A DNA stretch of 64,000 bases from Nemertoderma westbladi (Eukaryota; Animalia; Xenacoelomorpha). Each line of letters opens with the position of its first letter. Position 1 is the first letter of the stretch. Shown here piece by piece: positions 16,458 through 41,597 of the stretch. The stretch spans positions 34,251 to 98,250 of the forward strand of contig JAUCBJ010005441.1 in NCBI GenBank assembly GCA_032718475.1, in the 5' to 3' direction. The notes beneath the pieces are model-generated. The model was not told the origin of the DNA, searched no databases, and saw only the letters and a list, made by a program, of their open reading frames with translations. A program made the position numbers and the translations under genes.

Positions 16458-17416
16458 GTTGTTTTACGAGTTTAACGAGTTGTATCGTGATCAGCGACTT
16501 TGGAAACCTGTATAGCTTCAGAATTACCAAAGGCAAAACCAAGGCAAAATTTAACAGTTTATAATTTTGTGTTACTCGTAATTTTCATTCTGGGGCACCA
16601 GAATAGCACCAGAATTTGTTTTGCATTTACCAGAAATATATGTATGACTAGTTTCATCGTGATCAGCGACCTCGAAATCCCGTATACCATCAAAATTGTA
16701 ATTTTTGAGCCAAGATCTATAAAAATTCTAAACCGTCACGGCGAGATATTGCACAGAATTGTTGTCGTTCACCCGAACTTCTTACAGCATCAAATCGATA
16801 TATAAGCATCTCCACTAAAAATGATACATCTAATTTATAATGCCATCAGGTCAAGGGTGTTCTGCCAAGAAGCCGACACATAATTAATTGTTCAAAAGAT
16901 TCTGCGTTGAAGGCGGCGTAAAACTATTCATTCTACTACTTGGAGTAAATCTATAAGCTCTAAATCGATCATTGTGTGTTTCCAATGAGCCTAATCCTGA
17001 CCCGGTGGATTAATTATTTAGAATAATAGTTTTTGTTGATTTGCCTATCACACATTTACCATTAACTTCTCCCACGTTAGTTCATCGTGACTTGGGCACC
17101 GTTCAAGTGAAAATTTGGTTATAATCATACCCAACAGATTCCTACAAAATGTAAATCGGAGTGTCAGTGTGTTACATTTATTTGTTCTTATGGTCTCCTT
17201 CAAACGATAGAATTTTAGTCAATAGTCTCACTGTGGTGTATTGAAGAGTCTCAACACAATGTACTGCAGTGCTGTCATCATTACGTCTTTCATTATGGCA
17301 TTCCTTGCAAACCTCCACCGGCTCTTCCACTGAATCCTGAACACGCTTCCAACTGTTGGGTACAAGTAATGAGAGTTCAGTGCAGCTCAGTGCCAAATAA
17401 TGTTACACACATGGAG

Positions 17417-18729: not shown

Positions 18730-18897
18730 GTGTTGAACCAGTGAGGGAGCAATTAAGCTCGCATCCCGTTGAACCAGCGTGGGATAAGTTAAGCTCGGAT
18801 CCCGTTGAACAAGCTTGGGAGCAGTTAAGCACATGTTCCGTTGAACTAATGTGGGAGCAGTTAAGCTCACATCCCGTTGAACTAATGTGGGAGCAAG
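18730..18897 (-). repeat. Short diverged, inverted array of the same 36-bp unit (~5 copies)
   Basis: GTTGAACCAGTGAGGGAGCAATTAAG is the reverse complement of the minisatellite core. Confidence 0.85.
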
Positions 18898-20100: not shown

Positions 20101-20792
20101 TAAATAATCGATCCTTAATTTTCCGACGCATTTTATGTGAATTACAAATCCTGGACAACCTTTCCTTACTTTTTCGGAGGTCATCAAAATAAGCATTACT
20201 TTAGATTGGAAACTGAAAACATATTTTACCAAAAGTATATGAAACGTGTCATCAAATATATAGGAAGATCAGATATATTCAAGTATACATGATTGATCCA
20301 ATAATTTATCAATATGTAATCATGATATATAATCAATGAACTAACAATTCACCAAATTTAAATTTTGAGTGATTACAAGTAAAGTATGGTAGTAGTGAGT
20401 GGTACATCATTTAGGTAGAAAAACTCATTGTTTCCATGATGAGCTTCTAAATCTGAAAACAGCTTCTCAATAGCTCTTTTATTATTCGAGCTAACAAATT
20501 TTCAATTTGTGAAACATATTGAAATTACTATTAATGCATATAACGACAATTGAGATATCTTGAAATATTTATTTGTAAAATTGACTACTGTACAATCAAA
20601 ATTATACCCAAAACCGACAACGTTTGAAAGGCTGTGAGTGCTAAATATAAGAGTTGTCCAAAAGTAGGCTTCAGAGATCAGAGATTACAAACTGATTTAC
20701 TATAATTTATTTAAAACGTGATTATAGCCAAATACGTCATGTTCCTCAAAATAATATTATTTATTTTATAAGTTTCTTGTGAAATTTGCAAA

Positions 20793-21815
20793 ATGAGTGA
20801 GGAACTCTCTGATAGTATTTGGGTGGAAGAAATTAATGAAAAAGTCAATCAGGATTTTACAGATAAACAGACCTGTTTTGTCGACGGATTTGTTAGATTT
20901 AAACCTAGTGGACAGATACTACCTAGAAGCATGATATCGCTTCAAAAGGGGTTGTTTGAGTGGCCTGTGAAAGAGGACGATATATTTGTATGTTCCTTTC
21001 CTAAATGTGGTTCAACTTGGAGTCAAGAAATGATTTGGAACGTTATGAATGACGCTGACACAGATGCCGCTAAGCAGACGAATCTTCTAATTAGAGTACC
21101 GTACTTGGAGATGTCTGGAATACTTGGCGCATTCGGAGACTTCTCTGAGTACTACAGATATCTCAAATGCGACGATGATGCCAGAATGTTCTCTTCATCA
21201 CTGGATCAAGCTGCTTCACAACCATCTCCTCGGATCATAAAGACGCATCTTTCAGTCGATATGCTACCCTACCAATTCCACGAGAAGCATCCCAAAATGG
21301 TTTATGTTGCTCGAAACCCCCGAGATACATGCGTTTCTTTTTATCACCACTGGAAAATCTACCACGGCTACACAGGTTCTTGGGACATATTCTTTGACGC
21401 TTTCGTGGGAGATGTTTGTGGATTACACACTCCTTTCTTTCAGCATGTCCTTGGATACTGGCGAATCCGAGACAGAAAAAATGTCTTGTTTATTACCTAC
21501 GAAGACATGAAACAGGATCTAACCGGGATAATTAAAAAGACGGCAAACTTCTTAGGGAAACGATTGTCAGATGACCAAGTTAGGAAACTAGTTAGTCATC
21601 TCTCATTTGACAGCATGAAGGCCAATAAATCTGTGAATAATGAAGGCGATATTGCGGATGTGAAAAAGGCGCTTGGAACAGAAGCTACGGATTTCATTAG
21701 GAAAGGGAAAATTGGGGATTGGAAAAATTACATGAGCCAAAAACAAATCGAAAGAATGAGGGAATGGGAGGAGATGAATTTGAAAGACTCGGGCTTGGAG
21801 TTTGTTTATAAATAG
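20793..21815 (+). CDS. Cytosolic (SULT1-like) aryl sulfotransferase, 340 aa, single coding exon
   Basis: 5'-PSB loop SFPKCGSTW, catalytic IIKTHL, 3'-PB motif YVARNPRDTCVSFYHH, C-terminal FIRKGKIGDWKN. The ORF is intact. Confidence 0.95.
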   Translation: MSEELSDSIWVEEINEKVNQDFTDKQTCFVDGFVRFKPSGQILPRSMISLQKGLFEWPVKEDDIFVCSFPKCGSTWSQEMIWNVMNDADTDAAKQTNLLIRVPYLEMSGILGAFGDFSEYYRYLKCDDDARMFSSSLDQAASQPSPRIIKTHLSVDMLPYQFHEKHPKMVYVARNPRDTCVSFYHHWKIYHGYTGSWDIFFDAFVGDVCGLHTPFFQHVLGYWRIRDRKNVLFITYEDMKQDLTGIIKKTANFLGKRLSDDQVRKLVSHLSFDSMKANKSVNNEGDIADVKKALGTEATDFIRKGKIGDWKNYMSQKQIERMREWEEMNLKDSGLEFVYK

Positions 21816-25100: not shown

Positions 25101-26606
25101 TCTTCCAGCGCGACCAGTTCACCAGGGACCAAATCCCTCTGGTCAACACGGAGCTCACATTACTGCCCAACATGAGCGATGTCTCACCAAACACACAACC
25201 AATGCTCAGTCCAAGGTACAATGTCCTACCATGTCCAATGTCCTGCCTGTGTTCACTTCACTCAATGTCGGCGACCTCGTATACTGATGTTCCGACTCTC
25301 CCCGGTTCAGCGTTAGACCCTATTATATCATCAGTACCCAGGTGTTCCATCAGGAAATTCGTTGGCAACCAGCTCCGCTCTCTACTACTAGGATCGGCAT
25401 GCTACATTGCAGCTGGATTCTTAAGAATTCTGTGCTGGCTTGTCGACAAAATTGTGCCGCCACAACTCCCGATCACCCATGACATTTGCTATCTTCGATT
25501 CCGCATCTTCAAGGCCTTTAAGATGCGTCTCAAGAAAGTCATGGGCTGTCCACTATGCTTATGCACTCCATGAGGCTCACAAGATTATGCACTGACAGGT
25601 CCTCACGGCGAAAGCAATGTCCTGCCAAGCGGAGGCGACTTTGTTCTAGTGTCACTCTTGGGGGAACCAATAAGACACCTCCAATGTTATATAGTGTCTG
25701 GTTGGAGATGTGTGCATTGTACTTGACACAATGAACCCGGCGTAGCATTCTTGTGAATGTGCCATCCAGAGATTTGGTGTCCTCAGCAGTTAGAGCCCAG
25801 CATGGACACTCATAGAGGAGTACTGGAACTACTGCTGCTATAAATAATAGGACCTTAAGTTTCCAATGAATTCTATGTGACTTCCAAATCCTGGAAAGCC
25901 TATTCAAGGCTGCCCATTCCTTTCCCTTACGTATTCGAAGGTCCTCACCTGACTTCCGGATCCATGATCCCAGGTAACAGAAGTCGTCCACATGCTCAAG
26001 CATACCATCCTTTGAGCTTTTGCTCATCCGGTCAGAGACTTACTGAGGACTTTCAAAGTTAACATTTCAAAGTCAAAATTGTGGTCTTTTTGGAGTTAAT
26101 AAAAAGACCAACACAAAAAGCAGTATGTTCTAATGAGCTGAGGAACCGGTGATTCAGAGAGTATTCCTAAGTCATCAGCAAATTCTAGATCAGTTAGGTA
26201 CCTGGCAGGATTACCTCGACTTCTGGATCCAGTAGATAGAGTTACCATCACCCCATCATCATTATGATGATCTAAGGACATAGTACAACATATTCAACCA
26301 CAGTTATGAACAATAATGGTGCAAGTGTGTCTCCCTGGAGGACGCCCCATAACACTTCAAATGGTTCTGTGCCACCATCAACAGTAGACATAAATGTTGT
26401 CGAACCATCGTATTCTGATCTGATTGCTGCAATAATTTCATCCTCTCACGTCTACCGCGTACTCACCAACCTATATCCCAGTCGACATCCCGCCATCTGT
26501 ACCAACTGACCAGACACCCGAACCTGATGTTGTTGATTCCCTCAACAGGGTCTCGCATCGCCCACAACGGATCCGCAAACCACTGCAATATTATGGGTTC
26601 CCATAG
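22130..26606 (+). mobile_element. Degenerate Ty3/Gypsy LTR retrotransposon internal region (gag-pol relic), interrupted by an RTE insertion
   Basis: Broken frames read LELMLGQVANY, ERPEDL(F)[36 protein letters not shown] motif KLADDIYCGG, integrase IRTDPAPSF..KNPNKNPIA and IRKFVGNQLRS. The tail RPQRIRKPLQYYGFP* resumes after the LINE. Confidence 0.8.
25430..26445 (-). mobile_element. 5'-truncated, decayed RTE-clade LINE (C-terminal half of RT)
   Basis: GV.QGDTLAPLLF, LTDLEFADDLGILS, LEHVDDFCYLGSWI, LKVLLF..VVPVLLY.C..W.LT...LDGTFTRMLRRV. Confidence 0.85.
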
Positions 26607-27390
26607 CGACCTTCCTGCACGGCTCGCCCCAATTTGATCTGAGTTCGAGTCGTACCATACTGGTTGCGCTATACTGTGTTCGCCAATATTTATATACTCT
26701 CCGTGATCCACCCATCATATCTGCGTTGTAATGTGCTGATTATAAACACATATTTTTATAGCCACATTTTATTTAGTTGCCAACCCGCTGTTTACTTGGT
26801 TTCTATTTAGTTCCATCTAGATTGTGTTTAATAGTTTAGTTTTATTTTTCATAGGTTAGTTCGCTAACACGTACCGAAGGTCCCGTGTTCAGTCCTCACT
26901 TATGACCGTCACTTTTTGCATGGCCCATACTGTAGGTAGGGTGTTTATTGCTCTCTCTCTACCTCTCGCATCGTGTAGTTAGAGTTAGGGGTATCCCAGT
27001 ACTAACCTTGGTATAATGCATACTTTTGTTTGTTTATATTAGGAACAAGGAGGGACAACAAGGTAAAACAAGTTGCGCCAGGCAGTTAGGCCGCACTGTG
27101 GATTAGGAACCATACAGTAGAGTACTAGGCCTCCGGACCTAGAACTGTAGTAGTTAGGCGGATACCTGTCTGACAGTACTGATAATGTGCGATCTGTTGC
27201 TGTTACCTATATTATTGGTCTATATTATATTATAATGTATATGTATCGCAATGTACTCACGGTATCGTACCTTTCCCATCGTTACTGATGCGAAGAGACA
27301 GTAACAATACCTGCAATATCTTACTGTAAAGTTTGTGAATCAAATCATAAATCCGACCTTCTCACCAAAACAGTAAACTCCAAGTAAGCG

Positions 27391-29002
27391 TGTTCGCGGT
27401 ATTTCAACTTTCCATAACGCGTGTTGAATATTTTTGTATTTATTTAAAATTGATTATTCCGATATTACTACTGGGTGCGGGACCATGGGTTTTGGGCACA
27501 TTCAAGAAACTGGGGGCGATTTATGGGCGAACTTTGGGGCAACTTACAGGGTACGGGAATAATTTCATAGTTATAAGGGCCAGGGGGGGATGGAAAATGC
27601 AAGCAGTATTCAGGTTAGCCTGAGTACTATTAGGCCCTGGCCAACTTCCTGCTGCCTGTAGGGGTGGATTTGGTAATGCGCCAGGCCTAAAGGACAAGGA
27701 CTGCCCTTAGCGGTCCCTGGCCAACAGCAGCCATTACGAGACTGAAAAGAACTCGGACTGCTGACTGCTTGTGTCAGGGATTTGCGACGGGCACCGACGG
27801 CCCCTTAGTAGCCAAGCCGTTCTGGTTCTCGATGATCGTTCCCTTCGGGGTTCGTGAGGGGTGAAGCGGACACGCGAACGGGTGGCCAACTAACGACTGC
27901 CCCCTGACCTAAGCCGTACTGGTTCTCGATGACCGATCCCTTCGGGGTTCGTGAGGGGTGGGACGGACATGCGAAAGGGCTGGCCACAGGACGGGTTTGA
28001 CGAGAACTGCCCTTAGCGGTCTCTGGTCAACGGCAGCTACTACGAGACTGAAAAGAACTCGGAACGCTGACTGCTTGTACTGGGATTTGCGACGGGAACC
28101 GACGACAGACCCCTTAGCCAAGCCGTACTGGTTCTCGATGATCGTTCCCTTCGGGGTTCGTGAGGGGTGGAACGGACACGCGATGGGGTCGAAAGACAAA
28201 GGACTAGACTCGACTAGACTCTACTGGCCTACCGACTGTTCGGAGCAGTTTCTCGGCTGCCGAAGCGACTACGAGCCTGAAACGGACTCGGAAAGCCTAG
28301 GTGGTTGGGTTTCTGTGATGAACCGACGGACCCCTAGCCAAGCCGTTCTGGTTCTCGATGATCGAACCCTTCGGGGTTCGTGAGGGGTGGAACGGACACG
28401 CGAACGGGTCCACCGACACGACAGACTCCTAGCCAAGCCGTACTGGTTCTCGATGACCGAACCCTTCGGGGTTCGAGAGGGGTGGTACGGATACGCGACA
28501 GAGTCTACCGACTGGACCGACCCTTAGCCAAGCCGTGCTGGTTCTCGATGATCGTTCCCTTCGGGGTTCGTGAGGGGTGGAACGGACACGCGACAGGGTC
28601 GACCGACACCGACACTACGGCACTAAGACTGGGACCGAGGGAAAATCTGGGGAACATTAGGTAGGCTAAAATTCTGAGCAAACAGTGGGTTATTAAATAA
28701 TATACTGTAGGGATTTATATTATCGTGTATAATTATTGTGAATATTTGGTGTATATTGATTTGGGGAAGCCCAAAATTATTCTTAATCAAGTTTCAATGA
28801 TGTTGAACGGGTTTCAACTATAGGAAGTTACATTAAAGAGTATATCCAACTAATGCAGCTTTTTATCAACCGCAAACTTGCATCTCAGAAAATATTCCCT
28901 CCCCACAATCAATATCCGGTGACTGGCCGGGGCTCGGTGGTCTGTTAAGTCACGTCTCCAGCATCGGCGTTTTTCCCCCCTGGTGTAGGGATAACGGCAA
29001 CA
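27391..29002 (+). repeat. 5' LTR of element B
   Basis: Direct repeat of 37394-39005 at offset 10003. Confidence 0.97.
27702..28612 (+). ncRNA. Array of nine structured-RNA modules in LTR B (six kink-turn/UUCG hairpins and three GAAA-loop hairpins)
   Basis: Repeated CCGT(T/A)CTGGTTCTC-GAT-GA-T-CG..CCC-TTCG-GGGTTCG-T-GA-GGGGTGG(A/T)ACGG with compensatory changes between copies. Confidence 0.75.
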
Positions 29003-29253
29003 AAATTAAGAATAATTCACGTGGTTAATTTTGACAGGGTGTCAAAATTAAGAATAATTACGGTCAACTTCAACTGGTGGAAGTTGAGAATCCTTCAATA
29101 CTCTTCAAAAACTCTCTACGTGCTTGCCAGCACCCACTACGAGGAAACTCTGGTATTTGAGTTGAGACAAAGTCGTGGTTTAATTAATCAGCAAACTCGA
29201 TCTAACCAACTCGTAGTCGGCAGATCACATATTTGGAGAGTTGTTAACAGGGA

Positions 29254-29445
29254 ATGGAAGTATCGATCACACCCATTGATATAATTCAAGTTGAGCCAGG
29301 AATCTGGCACGTCGAAGTTGAGGTACAAGGAACGAACGTTGGACGATTCAGGATTACTGTTCGGGTGGTCCAAGCTGAGTACAATACCTACGAGGAACTG
29401 TTTTACGACATCGCGTATCTAGCCATCGACGAGGCGTTACAATGA
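29254..29445 (+). CDS. 63-aa upstream ORF overlapping the gag start (ATGA stop-start)
   Basis: ATG-initiated; its TGA (29443-29445) overlaps the gag ATG (29442-29444); protein-like amphipathic pattern. Confidence 0.4.
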   Translation: MEVSITPIDIIQVEPGIWHVEVEVQGTNVGRFRITVRVVQAEYNTYEELFYDIAYLAIDEALQ

Positions 29446-32400
29446 CAACAAATAACGTATCCGATACCGACGAGATGGATCACCACACAGACTCGGAAGC
29501 CGACGAGGTACCAAACGTCAAGAACATGACCCGTCGGTTAGGGGCTCTTAAAGGCGGAGTAACCCGAGCGTATCAACGGATGGAGAAACAACTCAAAGGA
29601 GTCAAAACCCCCCTCAATGAGGTACAAACTCAGCTTCAAAGTATCCGAAATATCCTACAGCGGTACGAAAGAATGATACAGGTGTACCAAGAGCTCGTTC
29701 CCCCCACCGATCAGGAAAACTACCCCAAGTTGGAAGAACACGTTGTACATCTAGATGGGTTCCGCAAACAACACCGGAGGACCCTCAGCCTTGTGAGAGG
29801 CTATGAGGAACAGTATTACATGAGGGCTGACGCGGAATCAGTACGATCCTCCATCATCAGGACAGCAGTACATCGTAAGAGAACGGGGTCTGCTAGAAAT
29901 CAGCACTCCAGCGCTAGGAGCGAGATATCCGGCTCGGCGCGCAGTTCTCAAGGGGCGCCGCCACTCCGAGACCAACTGCGAGAACGGAAGGCATTAGCCC
30001 TCAAAGCTCGGATGGAAGATGAGTATATTCAACTGCAAGCCGAGCAAGATGTATTAGCCGCCGAAACACAAAAGCGAGAGGCCGAACAAGCGGCCGAACG
30101 GCAGGCCGAACAACGCGAACAGGAGGCCGAACAACATAGACGAGAAGCCGAATGGCAGGCCGAACAACGTAAACAGGAGGCCGAACAACATAGACGAGAG
30201 GCCGAACGACAGGCCGAACAACGCAAACAGGAGGCCGAACAACGCGGACGAGAGGCCGAACGAGAGATCGAACAACGTAAATGGGAAGCGGAAATGCGTA
30301 AACAACACGCCGAGGCCCAAGCAATTCTTATCCACAAAAAGAATGCGGATATTGCAAAACTCGCAGAATACGAAGCCGCACTTATAGAACGAGATATTCA
30401 ACTCTACGAGGACTGGGAAAGGGATATAGATCAGGAATATGAACCAATTCCGGTACCGGAGTTAGAAAAGTCATTTACACCAACAGCGGCGAAACCTCCG
30501 AAACCCGAGATCCTGCCTACCAAACAGTCTACGCTATCGGCACAAGCCCCGGTGTTCCATCCCCCACCAGCTACGCTAAAGAATGAGGAACCTTATTTCC
30601 CATCCAACACCACGACAGCGAGTGTACCCAAGTACGAGCCTGAAAGGGACTCGGAACGGGACGCCACTCCCCGATCTAACAACCCATTTACATCCACACC
30701 ACAAACTCGTAGCCGCGTCATTATTAAAACTCCACCTATTATTGATCCATCAAGTATGGGAGTGAGTGCCAATAACTATAACCCTCCGAGTCACTCTAGT
30801 TCAGACGACGTCAGCATCATCCGGGCGTTGGAGAACCGCCTTGCCATGCCTAAGATGGAGATTCGCACCTTCGAAGGAGATCCCGTCGATTACCTCAGAT
30901 TCAAGAAACGGTTCTTTGCACAGATCGGATCAACGGACATAGCCGACGCACAGAAATTGGTATATTTATCGCAATACCTGGGTGACAAACCACGCAGAAT
31001 TGTTGCATGTTTTGAAGGAGGTTCTCATGAGGCATACTATGACGCATGGAAAACTCTAGATAAAAGATACGAAAATACCAGAACTATAATTAATAAAACT
31101 CTAGAGAGACTGATACAGGACGCAGGATCACTAGGGGACCCACAGAACATACAGGAATTCTCCGACTCTATGAAGGATGCCTACTATACTCTGAAACCCT
31201 TAAATAAAGAGGACCAGGTGAACAACATTCTAAACCTCCGACAGATCGCCAAGAAGTTCCCCGGATGGCTACAAAGTAAGTGGGCTTATAAATGTGTAGA
31301 TCTCCGGCGCAGACATCCAGATCGAGATCCTAGCTTCCTTGAAATGTCGGCATTCCTGGACGATATCTCCGAAGCCATGAATGACTCGATGTTTTCAAAA
31401 CAAAGTCTCGCAAAGTTGGACGGAATAGAGAGCAACTCCAGGAGTAAGATAACCCCTCCGAAACCGAGATTCCGCCCCCCACCGGTAAGTACGATGGCCA
31501 TTACCATGGCCGAGGATTCCGACGACGAAGACTACGAGGAACCGACATCCGCCAAGGAATGGGCATGTTATCTCGCGAGTTGGGCACCCAAAAGGGAAGG
31601 CATCACAAATCCCCTGCTCTGTCTCTTCTGTGGGGAGAAACACAAAGTGGAATTCTGCAGAAAGTTTCAGTTCGCCGAACTCGTCCCACGCTTCGAGGCG
31701 ATAATGAAACACCGAGGATGCTTCCGGTGTCTTGGAACAGGTCACTATGTTCGGGAGTGCGACCAAAGATCATGCTGTACTGTCTGTAACGACCAACGCC
31801 ATCACACGCTCCTCCACATCCCCGCGAACTTCGATTTTACTACCCTCCCCTTTCGGATCGAAGCCAGGCGAAGAGGAGAAACAAACCACGTCTTCAAAGG
31901 AACCCGGACAACCCAATGGAGAGAAACCAACCCGTTTAAAATCTCAACCGATACACCACAAGTAACAAATATTTCGGCCACGAGTAATCTTATAAATCGC
32001 CGCTACATGGTCTTCGCAAAGGTAATCCCAGTAAGGATCCAAGGAGTCGGCAAATCTTTGACGACACTCGCATTCCTCGATAACGGGTCCGACGGAACCA
32101 TCATCGACCGGGATTTCCTCGAGCAACTCGGCCTAGAATATGAACCTTGTAAACGGCCCATACAAACCATCACCGATAACAGAGAGGTAGAGTCCGGGGA
32201 GGTGCAACTCCAGATGGAAGGAGTGATGAAGGGCTACGAAACGGTTAAGTTAACCATCAAGAACGCCTTGGTACACACAGACCTCCGGGTGCGGTTCCGA
32301 CAATCAGCCGAGTACGCCCCCCTCATACAATTGGACCGAGACGATGTAGACCTGAGGTGTCCGCAGTTGGACGTAAACCGCATCACCCTACTGATCGGAC

Positions 32401-33359
32401 TTGATACACCGGAATTACACATACCTACCGGAGATGTCGCCCGATCCATAAAGAAAGATGACGGCTTTTACGCTGAACGAACCATAATGGGATGGACCCT
32501 CTGCGGCATCAAGGAAGAAACTACTGACACCTATACATATCTTCCTAAATGTCAGAATAAAGAAAATGTAACATCCGTGGGATATTGCTCAGCTACAGAC
32601 CTCGATGAGGATTTATTTCTCGAAACCGAGAGAACCCAGCGGGAGATGACCGGATGCTTTAATGTGGAGACCCGAGAGTTTGCCGAGAAGGACGAGAATC
32701 CGTCCGAGGAAGATCAATATTGTACCAACATTTTTGATCAGGCCACGTTCAAAGACGGACATTGGCGCGTGCCCATGATTTGGTGGCTAATAAGATTGTT
32801 GATGATAATAATGACGTTGATAACATTGACACCATTAACGGGAGAGCACGGACTAATCTGCCGTAATACCCGGATGGCGAACGCCTCAGTTGAGTCCCTC
32901 ACTCCTAACCACCTACTGGGGAGACCCAAAACCCACGTTCTCCCAGAGACCATGTTCCCGGATCCCAGCGAGATCGCGAAACATACAAACTGGAAAAAGG
33001 CCCAAGCGTTGGCAGCGCATTGGTGGAGAATTTGGGCCCGGGAGTACCTCATAACCCTCCGGACCAGGAGGAAATGGAACAACACCTACCGGAACGTCGC
33101 AGTTGGCGACATGGTACTAGTTAGAGAAGATCTCAAAGACCGCGTCCACTGGCCTGTGGCGCGGGTCGTGACCATACACCCAAGCAAAGACGGACTTGCG
33201 AGGACTGTGAAGATACGAACGAAATCGGGCCACTACCAACGCCCCATCCAGAAGCTGTGCCTTCTTGAAGGCAATGATAGCGGTGACTCTACGAGAGGTG
33301 ATAAAATCCCTATTCAAGATCCTGCTGCGGACATTGGTGACAATTATAAATGTGTTTAA
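29442..33359 (+). CDS. Element B Gag (DUF1759-like, zinc knuckles) plus aspartic protease, fused in frame to the integrase C-terminal (DUF5641-like) tail; 1305 aa
   Basis: FEGDPVDYLRF; CLFCGEKHKVEFC, CFRCLGTGHYVREC, CTVCNDQRHHTLLH; AFLDNGSDGT; then LTPNHLL..WWRIWAREYL..VGDMVLV..DGLARTV..RPIQKLCLLE. No YVDD, RNase H or DDE core. Confidence 0.92.
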   Translation: MTTNNVSDTDEMDHHTDSEADEVPNVKNMTRRLGALKGGVTRAYQRMEKQLKGVKTPLNEVQTQLQSIRNILQRYERMIQVYQELVPPTDQENYPKLEEHVVHLDGFRKQHRRTLSLVRGYEEQYYMRADAESVRSSIIRTAVHRKRTGSARNQHSSARSEISGSARSSQGAPPLRDQLRERKALALKARMEDEYIQLQAEQDVLAAETQKREAEQAAERQAEQREQEAEQHRREAEWQAEQRKQEAEQHRREAERQAEQRKQEAEQRGREAEREIEQRKWEAEMRKQHAEAQAILIHKKNADIAKLAEYEAALIERDIQLYEDWERDIDQEYEPIPVPELEKSFTPTAAKPPKPEILPTKQSTLSAQAPVFHPPPATLKNEEPYFPSNTTTASVPKYEPERDSERDATPRSNNPFTSTPQTRSRVIIKTPPIIDPSSMGVSANNYNPPSHSSSDDVSIIRALENRLAMPKMEIRTFEGDPVDYLRFKKRFFAQIGSTDIADAQKLVYLSQYLGDKPRRIVACFEGGSHEAYYDAWKTLDKRYENTRTIINKTLERLIQDAGSLGDPQNIQEFSDSMKDAYYTLKPLNKEDQVNNILNLRQIAKKFPGWLQSKWAYKCVDLRRRHPDRDPSFLEMSAFLDDISEAMNDSMFSKQSLAKLDGIESNSRSKITPPKPRFRPPPVSTMAITMAEDSDDEDYEEPTSAKEWACYLASWAPKREGITNPLLCLFCGEKHKVEFCRKFQFAELVPRFEAIMKHRGCFRCLGTGHYVRECDQRSCCTVCNDQRHHTLLHIPANFDFTTLPFRIEARRRGETNHVFKGTRTTQWRETNPFKISTDTPQVTNISATSNLINRRYMVFAKVIPVRIQGVGKSLTTLAFLDNGSDGTIIDRDFLEQLGLEYEPCKRPIQTITDNREVESGEVQLQMEGVMKGYETVKLTIKNALVHTDLRVRFRQSAEYAPLIQLDRDDVDLRCPQLDVNRITLLIGLDTPELHIPTGDVARSIKKDDGFYAERTIMGWTLCGIKEETTDTYTYLPKCQNKENVTSVGYCSATDLDEDLFLETERTQREMTGCFNVETREFAEKDENPSEEDQYCTNIFDQATFKDGHWRVPMIWWLIRLLMIIMTLITLTPLTGEHGLICRNTRMANASVESLTPNHLLGRPKTHVLPETMFPDPSEIAKHTNWKKAQALAAHWWRIWAREYLITLRTRRKWNNTYRNVAVGDMVLVREDLKDRVHWPVARVVTIHPSKDGLARTVKIRTKSGHYQRPIQKLCLLEGNDSGDSTRGDKIPIQDPAADIGDNYKCV

Positions 33360-33638
33360 ACCCTTCTCATCATGTTGACAAACTCTTTTAAAACTGTGAT
33401 TTACTGACAATGAGTTATGGACCCCCTTAAACCAACTGTAACCACGCAATGGTATTTGTGTTTCCTCGTGTGTTATGTGGAGTCCAGCTTCACCCTGCAG
33501 ATGTTTCGACTGACGCAGGGTCGTTTATGTATTGTTTACCCTGATTTTGGTCATCGGGACCAACGGTATTGGATTATTGGAAATGGAAAAGATTTGAAGT
33601 GGAATTCATTGTATTCATCGCAGTATGTTATGTTGTCC

Positions 33639-34049
33639 GTTGCGTGCGCAGTTCGGGGCGTAGGCGGTGTAACGAGTCCAGCTGTAGATCCCGGATTGCC
33701 GCGCAACACCCCCTCTATCCCGTTATTCTGGTGGGTCCATGGTGCATCCACATGACTTCGACGATAGAGGGTTTTATGTTTCTCAGTCGCGTTATTCTGG
33801 TGGGACCGTTACGTGGATTTTGGGGCGTAGGCGGTGTAACGAGTCCAGCTGTAGATCCCAGAATGTTGCGTAACCCCATCCCACATGACTTCGTCGACTG
33901 AGCTTTATGTTGTTGGGAGTGTTATTCTGGTGGGTCCCTGGTGCATCCACGTGACTTCACTCCTAGCGTCGTCATTGTCCGTTACGTGCGCAGTTTGGGG
34001 CGTAGGCGGTGTAACGAGTCCAGCTGTAGATCCCAGATTGCCCCGTAAC
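33639..34049 (+). ncRNA. Three copies of a covarying hairpin with an invariant 38-nt core, plus three copies of a second motif, between B's ORFs
   Basis: Core GGGGCGTAGGCGGTGTAACGAGTCCAGCTGTAGATCCC at 33639-33707, 33808-33874 and 33981-34049, with differing but complementary flanking arms. Confidence 0.7.
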
Positions 34050-34612
34050 ACCCCTTCCACGACAAAGATTAGCCAAAGAAAATGATTGAATATAGTTGGA
34101 AACGATGAAAAGGATCAGACAACTCTACTATAAACCTGAATGATGACGCGTATACTGATGAAAATGTAATGATGCGCACCCTGGTGCTGCGCTTATAACA
34201 ATGATGATAGCCGGGGGGCTATAAACCCAATGATGATGTGGAAATAAATAAATGTGAAATAAATGGTGGAAATAAATGTGATGAAATATACGTGGAAATA
34301 AATGAAATAAGATGAAATAATAATGAAATGAAAAAAGACAAAAAAAAAAAAAAGGTATAAAAAAGGTCAAAGAAAAGAATTAGAAAAAAAAGAAAAGGAC
34401 AAAAAAGTCATAAAAAACTGGTTGGATATTATGTATAGCTATAGTAACTGTAAATGCTGAATGTATTAGCAATAAGATGATAGATGCCTATATAGCAATG
34501 TTATTAATAAACTGAATTAAATAAAAACTGAATTATTCTGCTATCGCTATAGTTTCAGACTTTCTGGACTTATAATTAACTGATCTAATTTGTAACGGAT
34601 ATAATCGTAAAT

Positions 34613-37228
34613 ATGGACCCAAATCGCCAAATTATCGGGGAATTACGTAACACGATAGATTTACTGGAATATTCGCAACCCGGATCCCCTGACTTTGATA
34701 CAAATTGGAGCACCCTGCTAAATGAGAACGTGCGAGTCATTAAATTCACCGGGCGAGAGGGACCGGATTCTAAGAATCTACGAGCCCTCCGGTTAGCCGA
34801 TGCTAGTACGAGACTGAAAAGAACTCGGAACGCAAAGGCAACCGGAGGGGACGATTCGTCGTTTTGGGAAACGTTCCGGCAGAGCGTCTACAGATCCCGA
34901 TGTTTGATCTACGACAACGAGGGAAACGCGACGCCCACCTCGAAAGCGATTACATTGGCGAGATGTCAAAGTTTCGTCGACGACAAGAGTACGTACCTCG
35001 CCCACTGGGGAAACCTGTCGGAGTGTACGGCGACGCTTCGAGAGGAACGCGTATCGATTATCCAAAACTGAGACGACTACCAAGAAAAGTACGGGGCGAA
35101 AGAATACGGTCGATCCTTAGTCGTCATCCTCGGAACCCTGGACGGTTTGGTACTGGTGTGCCGAATATTCCCGACACCCAGACAGGAAGTGCAGGCAGCC
35201 GGAGCGATCTGGTTGCTGCCTCCGGAAATCCAAAAGATCCTCTTCGACTTCGACGTCATTAAAATCGGGTCGGATATCAAGGCGGACGTCCGGAACGACT
35301 ACGCGAACGCCCCTGCAGGAAGAAACCGACGAGACGACCTCAACGCCCTTAGCCATTGCATCGACACTCAAACGCTACTAGCCTGGTTACGATTCGCCGA
35401 GTTCATGCGAGGATTCCAAGAGGTGAGACCGACGAAATCCGGGATCGGCTACCTCGCTGTGCTCAACGGCGGTATCGACTTCAAACCCCAGAAATTCCGG
35501 GACTATAATAAAATATACGGTGGATACCCGGGATTGGAAATAAAGAGCGAGCGAGAGGGTCGATGGAAGGACGTTGATCGGAAGTGGACGATACACCAAA
35601 GGTGGGAGAATCCTGATCGACGGAACTACATTTACGTCGTTATGGAGTGCTACACCGTCGCTAAGTTTATCTGTAAAACTCTCGATAACCTTATTACGGC
35701 GGTCCCCCTTTCCTTCGTCGACTACGACTGGAATGAGGTTATAAACCACGCGTTTAAAGCGGTCGAGAACATTACACCGGGAGAATCGAAAACGCCCGCC
35801 GTTATCGATTCCTGGGACGAGAGCGGACCTTACAACATCCCTACGATTACCGAACTTCTCGGTGCGGAGGAGCCTCTGATCTCCTCGGAAGGGGAAGAGA
35901 TATGGCTAAACGAGGGTGTTCTACTCTCCACCCCGAAGCGACAACTCGAGCCGGAGGCCGCGTATGGACCGGCCGCCAAATGGGTTGCCTCGGCCGAACC
36001 GATGAAGAGAGCAGGCGTTTACACCCCACGCGGCTCCGGTAGCCCCGCGAGGGAGGTAGCCACTACAGCTGCATTGAGCGACTTCGGCGACATATGCCAA
36101 CGGTTATCCCCGGGTGTCCATTTCCGGTATCCTTTCCCGGGTGGCGAAGATTGGTCGTCGGAGATCCCGAGTACCAGCCACCAACGGACCCGCTCAGCGA
36201 TACTGGTCGAGGAGGGACCCAGCGATGCGCCGACCCCCGACGATCTCCTCGGTATCCCTCCGTCTAAAACCCCGGCACCTCTTCGCCGACCAGCGGTGGC
36301 TACTACACCCGCCATTCCTCAGGACCCTATGCGACTAACCCGTTGGTACGCCGAGCAAACTGAATGGATCCACCGCCAGAAACGGTCATCCGAGTTGAGA
36401 CCAGCAGGACACAAAGAAGGTTATCGGAGCGAGAACCTACTACGCAAAAGCCTAGCATTCCGCGGGCTACCGACCACCGAGAATATTCCGAAGAGCGACC
36501 GACGACTCGAATACTACGTCGGCGTCCCGATTCCGATATTTCCTGGTCGTGAGATGCAGTTGGAGGTATGCGGCGACTGTGGTTCGGAGCAGTGCCCACG
36601 CGGCAGAAGGAATCGGGTTACCGATTCATGCCTCCAGCTCCTCGGGATACTCTATTGCCCATACTGCGCGACATCGGGCCACGACGTTTCCGTCTGTCCG
36701 ATCCTTTATAACCTCTGCACCACGTGCGGTTTCCGTGGACATTCCTCTAGCCCCCGCTGCTATATCAAATGTCCAACCAAAGACGTTACCGCTATGGGCA
36801 ATATGGTCATGTTTGAGACATACGCAAACAGCCACTTAAAGACCAAGGTTCGGAGAAACGCTCGGAATATCGCGCAGGAGATGGCGTGCGGATATTTCTC
36901 CTTCCCGGAATGCCTCCACACGTCGGCCACGCTACCTTTCCATTACGTGGATCTGCTACTGAGCGCCGGATTATTCGGTCCATTTGAAGTCATTAGACGA
37001 TTATACTCGTATAAAGAGGAGTTCGGTGACGGAGAATGGTTCCTAGAGGCACGCAAATCTGAGTTGGAGAGACGAACCGACATGATCCCGATGCCTTCGA
37101 AAGGAAGAGCCGCCAGGAGACAAGCCGAAGCGTTACTCACGATGGATGTTGACGCTCCTCTACCAGCCATAGCGATCGATGAGAGTCGACGGGCGAAGAG
37201 ACGAAAGGCGTATCAGAGAAAGAAATAG
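34613..37228 (+). CDS. Element B extra ORF: DEDDy/WRN-like 3'-5' exonuclease fold plus CCHC knuckles (871 codons, one in-frame TGA at 35069-35071)
   Basis: ORFs 34613-35071 and 35147-37228 are in the same frame. ExoI IYDNEG, ExoII LPPEIQKILFDFDVIKIGSDIKAD, ExoIII-like IYVVME; knuckles CPYCATSGHDVSVC and CTTCGFRGHSSSPRC. Confidence 0.75.
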
Positions 37229-37393
37229 TGGATCGGGATATTCCAGGAACATTTATCGAACATTTATTTTTATACAAACTCTAGGCCAAATTAATTAAAA
37301 ACTATGCAATATTAAATTTGGGTTTTTTATATTGGGAATGACCTACGCAAACTCAATCGACCGACAGACTTCACGAAGGTCATTGGGGGGGAC

Positions 37394-39005
37394 TGTTCGC
37401 GGTATTTCAACTTTCCATAACGCGAGTTGAATATTTTTGTATTTATTTAAAATTGATTATTCCGATATTACTACTGGGTGCGGGACCATGGGTTTTGGGC
37501 ACATTCAAGAAACTGGGGGCGATTTATGGGCGAACTTTGGGGCAACTTACAGGGTACGGGAATAATTTCATAGTTATAAGGGCCAGGGGGGGATGGAAAA
37601 TGCAAGCAGTATTCAGGTTAGCCTGAGTACTATTAGGCCCTGGCCAACTTCCTGCTGCCTGTAGGGGTGGATTTGGTAATGCGCCAGGCCTAAAGGACAA
37701 GGACTGCCCTTAGCAGTCCCTGGCCAACAGCAGCCATTACGAGACTGAAAAGAACTCGGACCGCTGACTGCTTGTGTCAGGGATTTGCGACGGGCACCGA
37801 CGGCCCCTTAGTAGCCAAGCCGTTCTGGTTCTCGATGATCGTTCCCTTCGGGGTTCGTGAGGGGTGGAGCGGACACGCGAACGGGTGGCCAACTAACGAC
37901 TGCCCCCTGACCTAAGCCGTACTGGTTCTCGATGACCGATCCCTTCGGGGTTCGTGAGGGGTGGGACGGACATGCGAAAGGGCTGGCCACAGGACGGGTT
38001 TGACGAGAACTGCCCTTAGCGGTCTCTGGTCAACGGCAGCTACTACGAGACTGAAAAGAACTTGGAACGCTGACTGCTTGTACTGGGATTTGCGACGGGA
38101 ACCGACGACAGACCCCTTAGCCAAGCCGTACTGGTTCTCGATGATCGTTCCCTTCGGGGTTCGTGAGGGGTGGAACGGACACGCGATGGGGTCGAAAGAC
38201 AAAGGACTAGACTCGACTAGACTCTACTGGCCTACCGACTGTTCGGAGCAGTTTCTCGGCTGCCGAAGCGACTACGAGCCTGAAACGGACTCGGAAAGCC
38301 TAGGTGGTTGGGTTTCTGTGATGAACCGACGGACCCCTAGCCAAGCCGTTCTGGTTCTCGATGATCGAACCCTTCGGGGTTCGTGAGGGGTGGAACGGAC
38401 ACGCGAACGGGTCCACCGACACGACAGACTCCTAGCCAAGCCGTACTGGTTCTCGATGACCGAACCCTTCGGGGTTCGAGAGGGGTGGTACGGATACGCG
38501 ACAGAGTCTACCGACTGGACCGACCCTTAGCCAAGCCGTGCTGGTTCTCGATGATCGTTCCCTTCGGGGTTCGTGAGGGGTGGAACGGACACGCGACAGG
38601 GTCAACCGACACCGACACTACGGCACTAAGACTGGGACCGAGGGAAAATCTGGGGAACATTAGGTAGGCTAAAATTCTGAGCAAACAGTGGGTTATTAAA
38701 TAATATACTGTAGGGATTTATATTATCGTGTATAATTATTGTGAATATTTGGTGTATATTGATTTGGGGAAGCCCAAAATTATTCTTAATCAAGTTTCAA
38801 TGATGTTGAACGGGTTTCAACTATAGGAAGTTACATTAAAGAGTATATCCAACTAATGCAGCTTTTTATCAACCGCAAACTTGCATCTCAGAAAATATTC
38901 CCTCCCCACAATCAATATCCGGTGACTGGCCGGGGCTCGGTGGTCTGTTAAGTCACGTCTCCAGCATCGGCGTTTTTCCCCCCTGGTGTAGGGATAACGG
39001 CAACA
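37394..39005 (+). repeat. 3' LTR of element B (second copy of the RNA-module array at 37705-38615)
   Basis: Direct repeat of 27391-29002, preceded by a PPT. Confidence 0.97.
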
Positions 39006-40600
39006 AAGCGAATATATTGCAGTATTGGTCCCTTATAACCGGTGAGGCAGAAAACAGTCTACGAGCAGACAAACTTCGATAAAACAAAATCCCGCGCAGC
39101 GAATCCTAAAATCAGGCTGACTCACTGACGGACTAAGGGGCTCGTATACTTTGCCGCGGTGTGATTTATATGGTTGGGCGAAAGAGACGCTAGCTAGATG
39201 CAGAGATTTGGAGATGTCTAACTAGCGGGCAAAGTGCAGTACGGACAAAAGTTAATTTTATATATTTTGAGGTGTAAATAATTTCTAACTCGCGTGTGTT
39301 AATTCTGAACAGTCAAAGCAGTTTTGCTCCTTCACATATATAATTACTGGGTATGGTGTACATTTTACGAATATTCTAATTTTGTAACTTGTAGGTCCAA
39401 TACTCACGAATGATAAGGTTCCTTCCCCTCTTGCGTATTTCCAGGACTCAAATTCAGGCATAAAGTTAATGCTACGCCCAGAATTCGGCAATTTTAATTT
39501 ACCAGGTCCCTAATACTAAGAAGAAATGTGTTAGTTTACTACAGTAGGCGTACGGTTACAAATAGCTATCCTGGCTCTTATCTAGAATTTTAGTCACCTA
39601 GGTAGGCTGGGTAACTTCCTATCAGGATGTTGGCGGGGACACGGTAGATGTTAGTATATCCCTAATAGCCTCAATTTATTTGCGCCTAGTCGTAAACTGC
39701 CCTACCGCCTGAACGGTACAATCCTAATTCAGGTGAAACACAGCAACCCTCCTAGCCTACAAGTTCTAATGCAATGGACACCGTTGCACTACAAATAGTC
39801 GCAAACGCACCTGTACTTAGCAAGAGTTAGGCGTACAGTTTGCTGCACCCTACCAATGTGTATGCCTTGTACTGGTGTGCCTACGTCCCATCTGCGTACT
39901 AGTATCTCTGCCTGAGCTCTCTCTCCTCTCCTCCCGTAGGAATATGAAGGCCTACTGCGGTTTTTCCTGAATTAAAACAGTACAGTCCCTAGGATGTAAT
40001 TTTAGGCGTACAGCGTGTCACTACCTCTACCTTTGATCTTTGGTCTTACGCTTAGGTAGCAAGGCATCGAACGCTGTCTAACCTTTCAGGCGATGGGCGA
40101 ATAACTAAGATGGTATTGCGGGTTGTCTCCTGTCTACATTCCCTTGATGTTCCCGTTCATTGCTGCGGCCCGAAGTCTAGCCGGCCATCCTGTCCCTTAG
40201 TTGAGTTCACCGTGGTGAAGCATGATAAAACAGATAGAAAAAGGGCAGATGTGACAAGTATTTCTAACTTTTATTACAAAATCAAACAATAACTATTATA
40301 CAATAAACAGAGATAGAAACTGAAGTGATAGAGTGTGATAGATAGAATATATAACTAATGAACGAAATCGCACCTTTTATACCAAATTTGTGCCGCAATC
40401 AATCGAGAAAATTCTCGATTGTTCTATAGGTTCTAACAGGTTTTTAAAGATAGCTATTGGTCCAGCTAATATATAACTTGCACGACATTGGTTACAATCT
40501 AATAACTACAGTCTCATTGGTTAATCTAGGTACAGACAAATGCAATTTAATTTGTAGCGGTCAATTTAAATGAGTTGAAATTCTGCACAAAAAATTATTC

Positions 40601-40677: not shown

Positions 40678-41597
40678 TTGACTAAACATCGTACAATAGA
40701 TATAACAAATACAAATGAGGACTCAAAGTAATCTTTTAGCAAAGTTAATTCGAATAAAATAAAATTTTGAAAATCCACGGCATTTAGGGAATATAATTCT
40801 ATACCGCTCCATGAAAACAGGATATTATCGTGCATAAAATATACGGTTTTCACCAATAATCAATCAAACTATAGAATACTTAGGGCGTACTTACATATTT
40901 ACAAATTAAATTTCAAACAATACTTCCTTTCTACATAATGATTCGATACAAAATAATTACAAATTCAAACTTTACATATTTAAGGCTTTACTAAGTAAAT
41001 TCAATATAAATCTAAATTAAATTCACCAATATAAATCTATTGCATCTCAATATTGCATAAATTCAAACAATTACAAATACAAATAAATGAAATCATAAGA
41101 AAGGCTCGCGAGTCTTCCATCTACTATTGCATCTCAAATATTGCATAAATTCAAATAATTACAAATACTTTCGTGCCTAAATGTAGATTGCATAAGTTCG
41201 GAATAATTACAAATATGAGTCTTTCTAAGCACAAAACTTTCTAACTATAAAACTTTCTAAATACAAAATATAACACCTTACAAATGAAACTATAAGAAAG
41301 GCCCACGAGTCTTCCATCTACTCTTACTTTCTATTTCACTGTAAATACAAATACTGCTTATAAGATATAAATTGCATAGTATTCGGAACAATATAAATTG
41401 CATAAGTTCGGAATAATCACAAATATAAAATATAAATCTTGCAAAATATAAATTCTTACTAAATATAAATCTTACTAAATATGAGTTCTTCCAGAATACA
41501 AAACTTACTAATTAAATATAAAACATATAACTCAAATAAATCACAAATTCACAAGAAAGGCTCACGAGTCTTCCGTCCACCCTTGCCCTCCCTTTTA

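What the first reader, a model, noticed from the sequence alone, without database searches (positions are those of the whole stretch)
27702..28612. LTR carrying six canonical kink-turn/UUCG RNA modules in a nine-module array
Seen: six ~80-nt units (about 27800, 27898, 28108, 28329, 28423 and 28519) fold the same way. Each has a closing helix, a CCGUUC/GAACGG helix, a C-GAU-GA-U...U-GA-G internal loop and a C(UUCG)G cap. Pairing is preserved by compensatory changes: CCGUUC/GAACGG versus CCGUAC/GUACGG, and GACCC/GGGUC versus GACUC/GAGUC. Units are joined by linkers rich in ACCGAC and interleaved with a second hairpin class (order B-A-A-B-A-B-A-A-A). Known: a 3-nt bulge ending in U, tandem G-A/A-G pairs and a U-U pair is the box C/D-type k-turn bound by L7Ae-family proteins (Snu13/15.5K, L30e, SBP2). 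Inference: the 3' LTR copy (37705-38615) forms the 3' UTR of the genomic and exonuclease mRNA and acts as a multivalent protein scaffold or decoy for export, protection from 3' decay or packaging. I know of no LTR element described with such an array.
Basis: partly seen in the sequence, partly recalled or inferred. Interest (0 to 1): 0.9.

Follow-up and report, generated by a model that had tools for sequence, protein, structure and literature searches.

The report
Modular RNA array in retrotransposon LTR
A young jumping gene of an animal genome carries nine look-alike sequence modules in its terminal repeat, predicted to fold into compact RNA shapes, and repeats one of them inside two of its protein genes, so they likely serve as many docking sites that mark its RNA for its own proteins.

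Summary
The array is real: six A and three B units lie in both 99.6%-identical LTRs of a pol-deleted BEL/Pao retrotransposon; no Rfam family matches. Covariation among A units is not significant (2 pairs, both in one copy; 53 of 500 shuffles). The k-turn follows the Kt-7/riboswitch pattern, not box C/D, and costs 3.6-5.1 kcal/mol against a rival register. B3 is a different fold.

The stronger evidence is new. A 23-nt loop-E/T-loop module from the B units recurs inside gag and inside the DEDDy/zinc-knuckle ORF in different frames: core 87-100% identical, flanks 16-43%, closing stem covarying (0 of 500). Two further module classes repeat between the ORFs. The neighbouring BEL/Pao element has its own 16-nt motif at 9 sense-strand sites. 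A self-priming-like PBS places the array in U3, hence at the RNA's 3' end (inferred).

Best reading (0.5): family-specific, multi-copy RNA docking sites for an element-encoded zinc-knuckle protein, used in RNP assembly (packaging or transport). Host Snu13/L7Ae binding is a weaker rival. No binding, expression or other-species data were obtained.

The parts
27391..29002 (+). 5' LTR of the inner BEL/Pao element, 1612 bp, TG...CA
   Evidence: 5-bp target-site duplication AAGCG at 27386-27390 and 39006-39010; 6 differences from the 3' LTR
37394..39005 (+). 3' LTR; holds the second copy of the array at 37705-38615 (all array coordinates +10003)
27703..27792 (+). B1: long hairpin, basal YUA-GC/GC-GA loop, apical loop-E/T-loop module at 27735-27757
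   Evidence: (z -4.7)
27800..27886 (+). A1: k-turn-like/UUCG module; basal loop reads AGUA/GAA
27899..27985 (+). A2: k-turn-like/UUCG module, basal part degenerate, 3b:3n C-U
28009..28098 (+). B2: as B1, apical module at 28041-28063
   Evidence: (z -2.7)
28108..28190 (+). A3: k-turn-like/UUCG module
28197..28322 (+). B3: different, poorly defined fold that shares only the apical module (28270-28292)
28328..28411 (+). A4: best-paired k-turn-like/UUCG module
   Evidence: (z -4.0)
28423..28505 (+). A5: carries both compensatory changes; 3b:3n C-A
   Evidence: (z -3.1)
28518..28601 (+). A6: k-turn-like/UUCG module
30633..30655 (+). loop-E/T-loop module embedded in gag (frame offset 0), loop AGUA/GAA
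34807..34829 (+). loop-E/T-loop module embedded in the 5' part of ORF2 (frame offset 2), at the tip of a long hairpin 34785-34850
33639..33709 (+). class C module, copy 1 (38-nt invariant core 33655-33692; other cores 33822-33859 and 33997-34034), stems with 3 compensatory pairs of 25
33722..33958 (+). class D module, three copies (33722-33759, 33791-33892 enclosing class C copy 2, 33921-33958)
29379..33359 (+). ORF1: Gag (DUF1759, zf-CCHC), aspartyl protease, then DUF5641; RT, RNase H and integrase core absent (internal deletion, junction near 32895)
   Evidence: (loose ends before 32892-32898)
34589..37228 (+). ORF2: DEDDy-type exonuclease domain plus three Cys/His knuckles; broken in this copy by an in-frame stop at 35069-35071
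29005..29017 (+). PBS position without TGG; perfectly complementary to LTR 28775-28787
   Evidence: 1 of 500 shuffles
28775..28787 (+). candidate self-primer, marking the inferred transcription start (U3/R border)
   Evidence: inferred from Tf1-type priming
28832..28837 (+). candidate polyadenylation signal ATTAAA (a second at 28692); both lie downstream of the array
37385..37392 (+). polypurine tract before the 3' LTR

Best explanation
The nine units lie in both LTRs of a young BEL/Pao retrotransposon, one of their modules recurs inside two coding regions, and together they are likely family-specific RNA docking sites that an element-encoded zinc-knuckle protein would bind many times over to assemble the genomic RNA into its transport and packaging particle. 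Steps: (1) shown: modules, positions, strand, reading frames, LTR/TSD anatomy. (2) inferred from LTR replication and the self-priming-like PBS: the array is U3 and so forms the 3' end of the genomic RNA. (3) predicted: each unit folds as a compact domain of non-canonical motifs (UA/GA or loop-E loop, T-loop, k-turn as an architectural bend, UUCG cap), separated by unpaired A/C-rich linkers. (4) inferred: the binder is element-encoded (Gag nucleocapsid, or the ORF2 DEDDy/three-knuckle protein acting like Rev/CERV or like the Egalitarian exonuclease-fold adaptor), because the neighbouring element with a homologous ORF2 uses a different motif dispersed in the same way. (5) untested: the outcome is selective export, transport or packaging, which also lets pol-deleted copies like this one be mobilised in trans.
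For: 23-nt module at 5 sites per element unit (3 in the LTR, 1 in gag, 1 in ORF2; 8 of 8 window matches on +, 0 in 100 shuffles), in two frames. Core identity 87-100% against flank identity 16-43% in the 9 of 10 pairs other than B1/B2. Closing stem: 3 of 4 pairs change on both sides, covariation score reached by 0 of 500 shuffles, best at slide 0. Class C: invariant 38-nt core, 3 of 25 pairs compensatory. Outer element: its own 16-nt motif at 9 places, all on its sense strand, in leader, gag, pol, inter-ORF region, extra ORF and 3' UTR (9 of 11 matches at up to 2 mismatches; the other 2 are one palindromic 2-mismatch site; 0.08 expected); no DNA similarity between the two elements, though their extra ORFs are homologous (E 2e-9). 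The extra-ORF family keeps D-x-E, D, Y-x3-D/E in most rows and three Cys/His knuckles; it resembles EXD2/NrnC by fold and EXD2 and Egalitarian by profile (E 9e-5, 1e-4). The pol-deleted copy has LTRs with 6 differences in 1612 and an intact TSD.
Against: No binding, probing or expression data; no listed holder of the LTR is on record as RNA (no evidence either way). All covariation comes from 3-6 paralogous copies in one window; the shuffle control ignores relatedness and the structure was drawn from these sequences (caveats). A-unit covariation is not significant. No relative from another species could be fetched, so conservation across families is untested. The outer motif folds weakly and inconsistently and is half palindromic, so it could be a DNA site. 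The fold matches are modest (TM 0.28-0.41, model pLDDT 68). A U3 array would also be on any ORF2 message, so it cannot by itself single out genomic RNA.
Confidence: 0.5

Rival explanations
1. Host-protein scaffold or decoy: six k-turns bind an L7Ae-family protein (Snu13/15.5K, L30e, SBP2) to aid export, stability or translation.
For: All 6 A units fit the standard k-turn pattern, and a k-turn/UUCG scan of the window finds exactly these 12 and none on the other strand. L7Ae-family proteins fold k-turns that do not fold alone (PMC5689011), and binding could outweigh the 3.6-5.1 kcal/mol gap.
Against: -1b:-1n and 4b:4n are both C:G, the pattern of self-folding ribosomal and riboswitch k-turns, not box C/D. 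A rival register is favoured in 6 of 6. It does not explain the B, C, D modules or the copies inside ORFs.
Confidence: 0.15
2. RNA-RNA architecture: T-loops, loop-E loops and k-turn bends dock on each other to compact or dimerise the genomic RNA (or clamp a tRNA-like elbow), with proteins secondary.
For: The apical loop C-UGAAA-N-G has an invariant U and A and a free following base (A, C, G), as expected of a T-loop (pattern recalled); two T-loops can interdigitate (PMC4919913 passages). The outer motif's 8-nt centre is self-complementary in all five variants, with only C/U or A/G wobble-type changes (duplex -3.0 to -15.3 kcal/mol).
Against: No second T-loop lies within the same module; no Watson-Crick partner for the loops was found; the loop can also be read as a GAAA tetraloop in 4 of 5 copies; UUCG caps are usually inert (recalled).
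Confidence: 0.13
3. Exonuclease block: the folded units stall 3'-5' decay by the host exosome or by the element's own DEDDy enzyme, protecting the RNA or yielding defined 3' ends or small RNAs.
For: The array would sit about 160-240 nt before the RNA's 3' end, just downstream of an ORF whose family keeps DEDDy residues; RNase D-like enzymes trim structured RNA ends (PMC5408684 passages).
Against: The outer element has the same kind of ORF but no repeated module in its LTR; modules inside gag cannot guard the 3' end; trimming into U3 would remove R.
Confidence: 0.08
4. DNA-level or neutral: tandem enhancer-like duplications in U3, or template-switch duplications with no function.
For: U3 regions often carry tandem repeats (recalled). 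A4-A6 form a 95-bp tandem, B1-A1 and B2-A3 are an 88%-identical block, and deletion variants exist in other copies (2-nt loss in the A4 loop; a contig joining 27821 to 28538).
Against: Isolated 23-nt cores in two ORFs with unrelated flanks and compensated stems; every copy on the sense strand in both elements; invariant G-U pairs and UUCG caps.
Confidence: 0.09
5. An undescribed self-cleaving ribozyme array: the shared basal YUA-GC/GC-GA loop is a catalytic core with interchangeable peripheral arms.
For: 7 of 9 units share that basal loop despite different upper parts; it loosely recalls twister L1; ribozymes occur in retroelements (PMC8501958 passages).
Against: No Rfam match at E up to 10; the twister L4/GAGGG pseudoknot strands shown are absent; cleavage in U3 would cut R off the genomic RNA.
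Confidence: 0.05

Closest known systems
Rev-type response elements of complex retroviruses (HIV-1 RRE/Rev, HTLV-1 RxRE/Rex, HERV-K RcRE/Rec) and Cer1 CERV
   Same: Structured cis RNA scaffold on the genome, thought to be bound in several copies by an accessory protein of the element (PMC10746203 passages; CERV abstract PMC10309623). RxRE and RcRE lie in the LTR (recalled).
   Different: Here a string of nine separate repeated domains plus copies inside ORFs, not one branched element; the accessory ORF is a DEDDy/zinc-knuckle protein, not an Arg-rich/NES protein; superfamily BEL/Pao.
Multiple dispersed packaging signals of ssRNA viruses
   Same: Many copies of one short RNA motif spread over the genome, also within coding sequence (PMC6281560, search listing only).
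   Different: Known signals are small degenerate stem-loops (recalled); these are 45-90-nt modules with near-invariant non-canonical cores, in four classes, in an LTR retrotransposon.
Egalitarian-bound localisation signals (K10 TLS, I-factor ILS, gurken GLS)
   Same: An exonuclease-fold protein binds bent stem-loops, two per complex, and one signal lies in a retrotransposon's coding sequence (PMC13186709 passages); the ORF2 family profile hits Egalitarian (E 1e-4).
   Different: Egl is a host protein with ED/LOTUS-like domains; ORF2 is element-encoded, keeps catalytic-type residues and has three knuckles. Egl signals favour U-A pairs; these modules are GC-rich.
Standard k-turn (Kt-7, riboswitch k-turns) and box C/D k-turn
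   Same: 3-nt bulge GAU, tandem G-A/A-G, C:G at -1 and 4, 3b:3n U-U, C-U or C-A.
   Different: Not box C/D (4b:4n inverted); repeated six times in an LTR; a rival register is favoured in the energy model.
DEDDy ORF3 of bdelloid Juno/Vesta Ty3/gypsy elements and Athena/Terminons
   Same: 3' accessory ORF with an RNase D-like DEDDy domain in an LTR retrotransposon (PMC5408684 passages).
   Different: Here in BEL/Pao, with three C-terminal knuckles; the passages seen report no cis RNA array.
Tf1/Tj1 self-priming
   Same: PBS complementary to a stretch of the element's own LTR, no TGG (PMC4600332 passages).
   Different: Described for Ty3/gypsy chromoviruses; here BEL/Pao; cleavage and the start site are untested.

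Membership tests
BEL/Pao LTR retrotransposon | LTRs with TG...CA ends, 5-bp TSD and PPT | tested here: met
BEL/Pao LTR retrotransposon | Gag DUF1759 with Cys/His knuckles, protease, DUF5641 at the integrase end | tested here: met
BEL/Pao LTR retrotransposon (autonomous) | RT, RNase H and integrase core | tested here: not met
   absent from ORF1; loose ends near 32895 show longer kin: a non-autonomous deletion copy
standard k-turn | 3-nt bulge followed by G-A and A-G between a canonical and a non-canonical helix (sequence) | tested here: met
   6 of 6; 12 of 12 scan hits
standard k-turn | this register is the one adopted | tested here: inconclusive
   3.6-5.1 kcal/mol above the rival register in 6 of 6, model without k-turn terms; no covariation in the C helix
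standard k-turn | kinked geometry and L7Ae-family binding | not testable with these tools
   needs FRET, gel shift
box C/D k-turn or snoRNA | 3b:3n U:U with 4b:4n G:C (boxes RUGAUGA and CUGA, recalled) | tested here: not met
   4b:4n C:G in 6 of 6, U:U in 4 of 6 (rule); no Rfam hit
SECIS element | conserved in-frame UGA upstream | tested here: not met
   the TGA at 35069-35071 is private: all laid depth in 4 of 4 runs reads otherwise
SECIS element | 11-14-bp upper helix and apical AAR (recalled) | tested here: not met
   7-bp helix capped by UUCG; no Rfam hit
twister or other Rfam ribozyme | match to the family model; two pseudoknots | tested here: not met
   0 matches at E up to 10 in the array; pseudoknot strands absent
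T-loop / loop-E motifs | closing pair, U...A pentaloop with free following base; AGUA/GAA loop (patterns recalled) | tested here: inconclusive
   C-UGAAA-N-G in 5 of 5, AGUA/GAA in the 2 coding copies, ACUA or AUUA in the LTR copies; a GAAA tetraloop reading fits 4 of 5
Rev-type response element | needed in cis for export and bound by the accessory protein | not testable with these tools
   no assay
DEDDy 3'-5' exonuclease (ORF2 family) | ExoI D-x-E, ExoII D, ExoIII Y-x3-D on a DnaQ-like fold | tested here: met
   D41/E43/D131/Y236 and D or E at 240 in the outer ORF and 7 of 9 other rows (one row lacks the N-terminal part, one is degenerate); inner D-N-E upstream of the stop; fold hits EXD2, NrnC. 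ExoIII D is E in both window proteins
Tf1-type self-priming | PBS next to the 5' LTR pairs with the LTR, no tRNA-type TGG | tested here: met
   inner 13 nt, 1 of 500; outer 10 nt, 4 of 500
Tf1-type self-priming | primer is the transcript's 5' end and is cleaved off | not testable with these tools
   needs 5' RACE and strong-stop DNA

The most novel reading that the evidence does not exclude
BEL/Pao elements with a DEDDy/zinc-knuckle accessory ORF form a lock-and-key system: each family writes its own RNA motif many times along its genome, even through coding frames, and this family has elaborated it into a U3 string of ribozyme-like folded domains (k-turn, T-loop, loop E) that its accessory protein reads as an element-encoded Egalitarian- or Rev-like adaptor to carry the RNA to the germ line or the particle.
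Probability: 0.25. Interest if true: 0.88.

Novelty: new variant of a known kind. Interest (0 to 1): 0.7.

Why it matters
How LTR retrotransposons outside Ty1, Ty3 and gypsy pick out their own RNA for export and packaging is largely open, and the role of their DEDDy accessory ORFs is undemonstrated (PMC5408684 says so). This window offers small, repeated candidate sites and a built-in specificity control: two nested families with homologous accessory proteins and different motifs. It also shows motifs known from ribosomes, riboswitches and RNase P in predicted tandem use in a selfish element. Multi-copy hairpins in retroelements were noted in other genomes of this scan, so the theme is not unique; the k-turn/T-loop complexity and the two-family contrast are what this case adds.

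Tried and rejected
SECIS/UGA read-through: tempting because ORF2 has an in-frame TGA upstream of k-turns with an AUGA core; rejected, the stop is private to this copy and the upper helix and loop do not fit. Box C/D mimic: rejected. Known RNA family: Rfam at E up to 10 gave 2 chance hits in 26000-40000, 0 in the array, 1 chance miRNA hit in the C/D region. Relatives in other species: A pattern 0 in viral contigs; T-loop pattern 0 in viral and 0 in prokaryote genomes; the one metagenome scan gave 1 hit, a chance match in a bacterial contig with no other similarity; protein-led locus searches gave nothing and two alignments were too diverged to search with. ORF2 word search: 0 of 7991 candidates; full HMMER search 12 hits at E up to 0.001, all unnamed or 'hypothetical'. 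No whole genome is held. Expression: no RNA holder listed; run X6 is only guessed to be RNA and is not used as evidence. Further diverged modules in the window: none. One search used a mis-registered structure string and is discarded (redone). Loop-loop complementarity within the inner element: none found. Local 100-nt folding scan flagged 5 windows only, so plain stability does not mark the array. Host taxon not determined: best named BEL/Pao hits are sea urchins and molluscs at about 40% identity; Atlas hits for the exonuclease part pointed to PF01612 in 24 of 30 rows, those for the knuckle part scored under 0.9.

Full report
1. The element. The array lies in a 1612-bp direct repeat at 27391-29002 and 37394-39005 with TG...CA ends, a 5-bp target-site duplication, a polypurine tract and 6 differences between copies. 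ORF1 (29379-33359) matches DUF1759, zf-CCHC, aspartyl protease and DUF5641: a BEL/Pao element lacking RT, RNase H and the integrase core. Loose ends before 32892-32898 in two runs mark the deletion junction. It is inserted in the 3' LTR of a second BEL/Pao element on the minus strand (about 27285-57425, TSD GTAAC). Both carry a 3' accessory ORF; the two are homologous (E 2e-9). The family has 12 relatives at E up to 0.001 among 1.84 billion representatives, keeps DEDDy-type residues and three Cys/His knuckles, and resembles EXD2, NrnC, Nibbler and Egalitarian (TM scores only 0.25-0.41). Thousands of contigs lie on the element in runs X1 and X3, so the family appears abundant; depth is no copy number. 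The host is an animal of undetermined group.

2. The observation. Six A units per LTR are exact and non-random (12 of 12; model search). All have GAU-GA-N / N-GA and C(UUCG)G; the third pair is U-U in 4, C-U in 1, C-A in 1. Four of nine units fold at z below -2.5. In all six A cores the energy model prefers a register that pairs the GA strand, by 3.6-5.1 kcal/mol; the model has no k-turn terms, so this leaves the k-turn open rather than refuting it. By the rules in the Discussion of Ashraf et al. (PMC5689011; abstract and Discussion read), C:G at -1 and at 4 is the self-folding Kt-7/riboswitch pattern, whereas box C/D has G:C at 4; 3b = C also permits folding (PMC4382518, abstract start in the listing). 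B1 and B2 are one class; B3 shares only the apical module. Seven of nine units share a basal YUA-GC / GC-GA loop. Rfam has no match.

3. The 23-nt apical module of the B units recurs at 30633 in gag and 34807 in ORF2, in frame offsets 0 and 2. Core identity is 87-100% in all 10 pairs, flank identity 16-43% in the 9 pairs other than B1/B2 (80%). Three of four pairs of the closing stem change on both sides; 0 of 500 shuffles reach the score and slid partners score lower (five related sequences, so not a probability). The two coding copies have AGUA/GAA below a CGAG/CUCG helix, and all five end in C-UGAAA-N-G; I read these as loop E and T-loop from recalled patterns. Between the ORFs lie two more classes, three copies each: C, with an invariant 38-nt core and 3 of 25 compensatory pairs, and D, one copy of which encloses a C unit. 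The outer element has none of these but has its own 16-nt motif at 9 sense-strand places, four of them in ORFs. Its folding is weak and its centre is self-complementary.

4. Position in the RNA. Every LTR base is copied from the genomic RNA (established knowledge), so the array is transcribed at least once. Neither element has a TGG-type PBS. Inner: 29005-29017 pairs perfectly with LTR 28775-28787 (1 of 500 block shuffles); outer: 10 nt (4 of 500). In Tf1 and Tj1 such a match marks the transcript's 5' end (PMC4600332 passages). That places the start near 28775, with ATTAAA at 28832, and makes the array U3, present at the 3' end only. If the match were instead the RNA's 3' end, the array would still lie upstream of it. 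I found this before seeing that other agents noted self-priming-like BEL/Pao elements in other genomes (unchecked notes, not independent support).

5. Mechanism. Identical cores in unrelated, compensated stems, on one strand, through two reading frames, are what a sequence- and shape-specific RNA binding site would leave. Different motifs in two families with homologous accessory proteins point to an element-encoded reader: Gag nucleocapsid or ORF2. Models exist for both: dispersed packaging signals (PMC6281560, listing only), Rev/Rex/Rec elements (PMC10746203 passages), CERV of Cer1 (PMC10309623 abstract), and Egalitarian, an exonuclease-fold adaptor that binds two bent stem-loops, among them one in I-factor coding sequence (PMC13186709 passages). 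I give this 0.5; host k-turn binding 0.15; RNA-RNA docking 0.13; DNA-level or neutral 0.09; exonuclease block 0.08; ribozyme 0.05. A SECIS reading was tested and dropped: the in-frame stop in ORF2 is private to this copy.

6. Limits. No relative's DNA could be obtained. No RNA run is on record. Variant tables were cut to 40 of 83 and 40 of 244 rows and map ambiguously among paralogous units, so I drew no selection estimate from them; they do show damaged variants (a 2-nt loss in the A4 loop, a change in the A6 basal loop, a collapsed array in one contig).

7. Novelty. Searches: 'kink-turn' + 'LTR retrotransposon' 2 papers; 'k-turn' + 'retrotransposon' 19 papers, 18 listed; three of 'T-loop', 'k-turn', 'retrotransposon', 'loop E' 45 papers, 15 listed; retrotransposon cis element/packaging/multiple copies 20 papers, 15 listed; ribozyme/Pao 609 papers, 20 listed; self-priming/BEL 8 of 8 listed; DEDDy/BEL 64 papers, 15 listed. 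None of the listed titles and abstract starts describes such an array; the library lacks most subscription journals and Repbase reports, and no supplements were read. DEDDy ORFs are described for bdelloid Ty3/gypsy elements (PMC5408684 passages). Also seen as passages: PMC3118150, PMC554778, PMC3601003, PMC12510878, PMC4919913, PMC8501958. Earlier notes of this scan list multi-copy hairpins in retroelements of at least 9 genomes, which lowers uniqueness but suggests a general, unpublished theme. Verdict: real, a new variant of multi-copy cis RNA signals, function inferred; interest 0.7.

Noticed in passing
window 41103-54636, minus strand (41103, 41300, 41559, 44534, 45682, 48234, 52725, 52806, 54621): The outer BEL/Pao element carries its own 16-nt motif GGAAGACTYGYGAGCC at nine sense-strand sites, four inside ORFs; its centre stays self-complementary in all variants (possible kissing or dimer site).
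   Followed up: partly
window 29005-29017 with 28775-28787; 55526-55535 with 56566-56575 (minus): Both BEL/Pao elements lack a tRNA-type PBS and have an LTR-complementary stretch in its place (13 nt and 10 nt): candidate self-priming.
   Followed up: partly
window 33639-34060: Two further repeated hairpin classes (C x3, D x3) between ORF1 and ORF2, one D copy enclosing a C copy; in run X4 this stretch has far more laid depth than gag, as if deletion derivatives keep it.
   Followed up: partly
window 41598-45347 (minus) and 34589-37228: Accessory ORF family: DEDDy exonuclease plus three Cys/His knuckles in BEL/Pao elements; no Pfam hit; 12 unnamed relatives; ExoIII Asp is Glu in both window proteins.
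   Followed up: partly
window 57425 and 40803 (minus): The outer element's LTRs appear to begin with TA, not TG, and end in CA, with TSD GTAAC; its gag-pol is broken by several stops although the LTRs are 99.2% identical.
   Followed up: no
window 29003-29065: The PBS unit is duplicated in this copy; contigs in two runs skip 42-48 nt here. A perfect hairpin lies between the two units and another follows.
   Followed up: no
window 28761-28776: A 6-bp hairpin with a four-base loop lies directly before the candidate self-primer.
   Followed up: no
window 6381-12214: DNA transposon with about 500-800-bp terminal inverted repeats built of 92- and 51-bp subrepeats, an rve_4 integrase-type transposase with HTH domains (9706-11516, minus) and an unknown 497-aa ORF (7667-9160).
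   Followed up: no
window 12386-16463: 36-bp minisatellite, about 114 copies, open for 967 codons on +; an inverted remnant at 18732-18895.
   Followed up: no
window 20772-21815: Single-exon sulfotransferase ORF (PF00685), apparently a host gene or retrocopy.
   Followed up: no
window 784-2133 and 57502-57747: 89-bp AT-rich tandem array with higher-order structure; 24/50-bp tandem array beside the outer 5' LTR.
   Followed up: no
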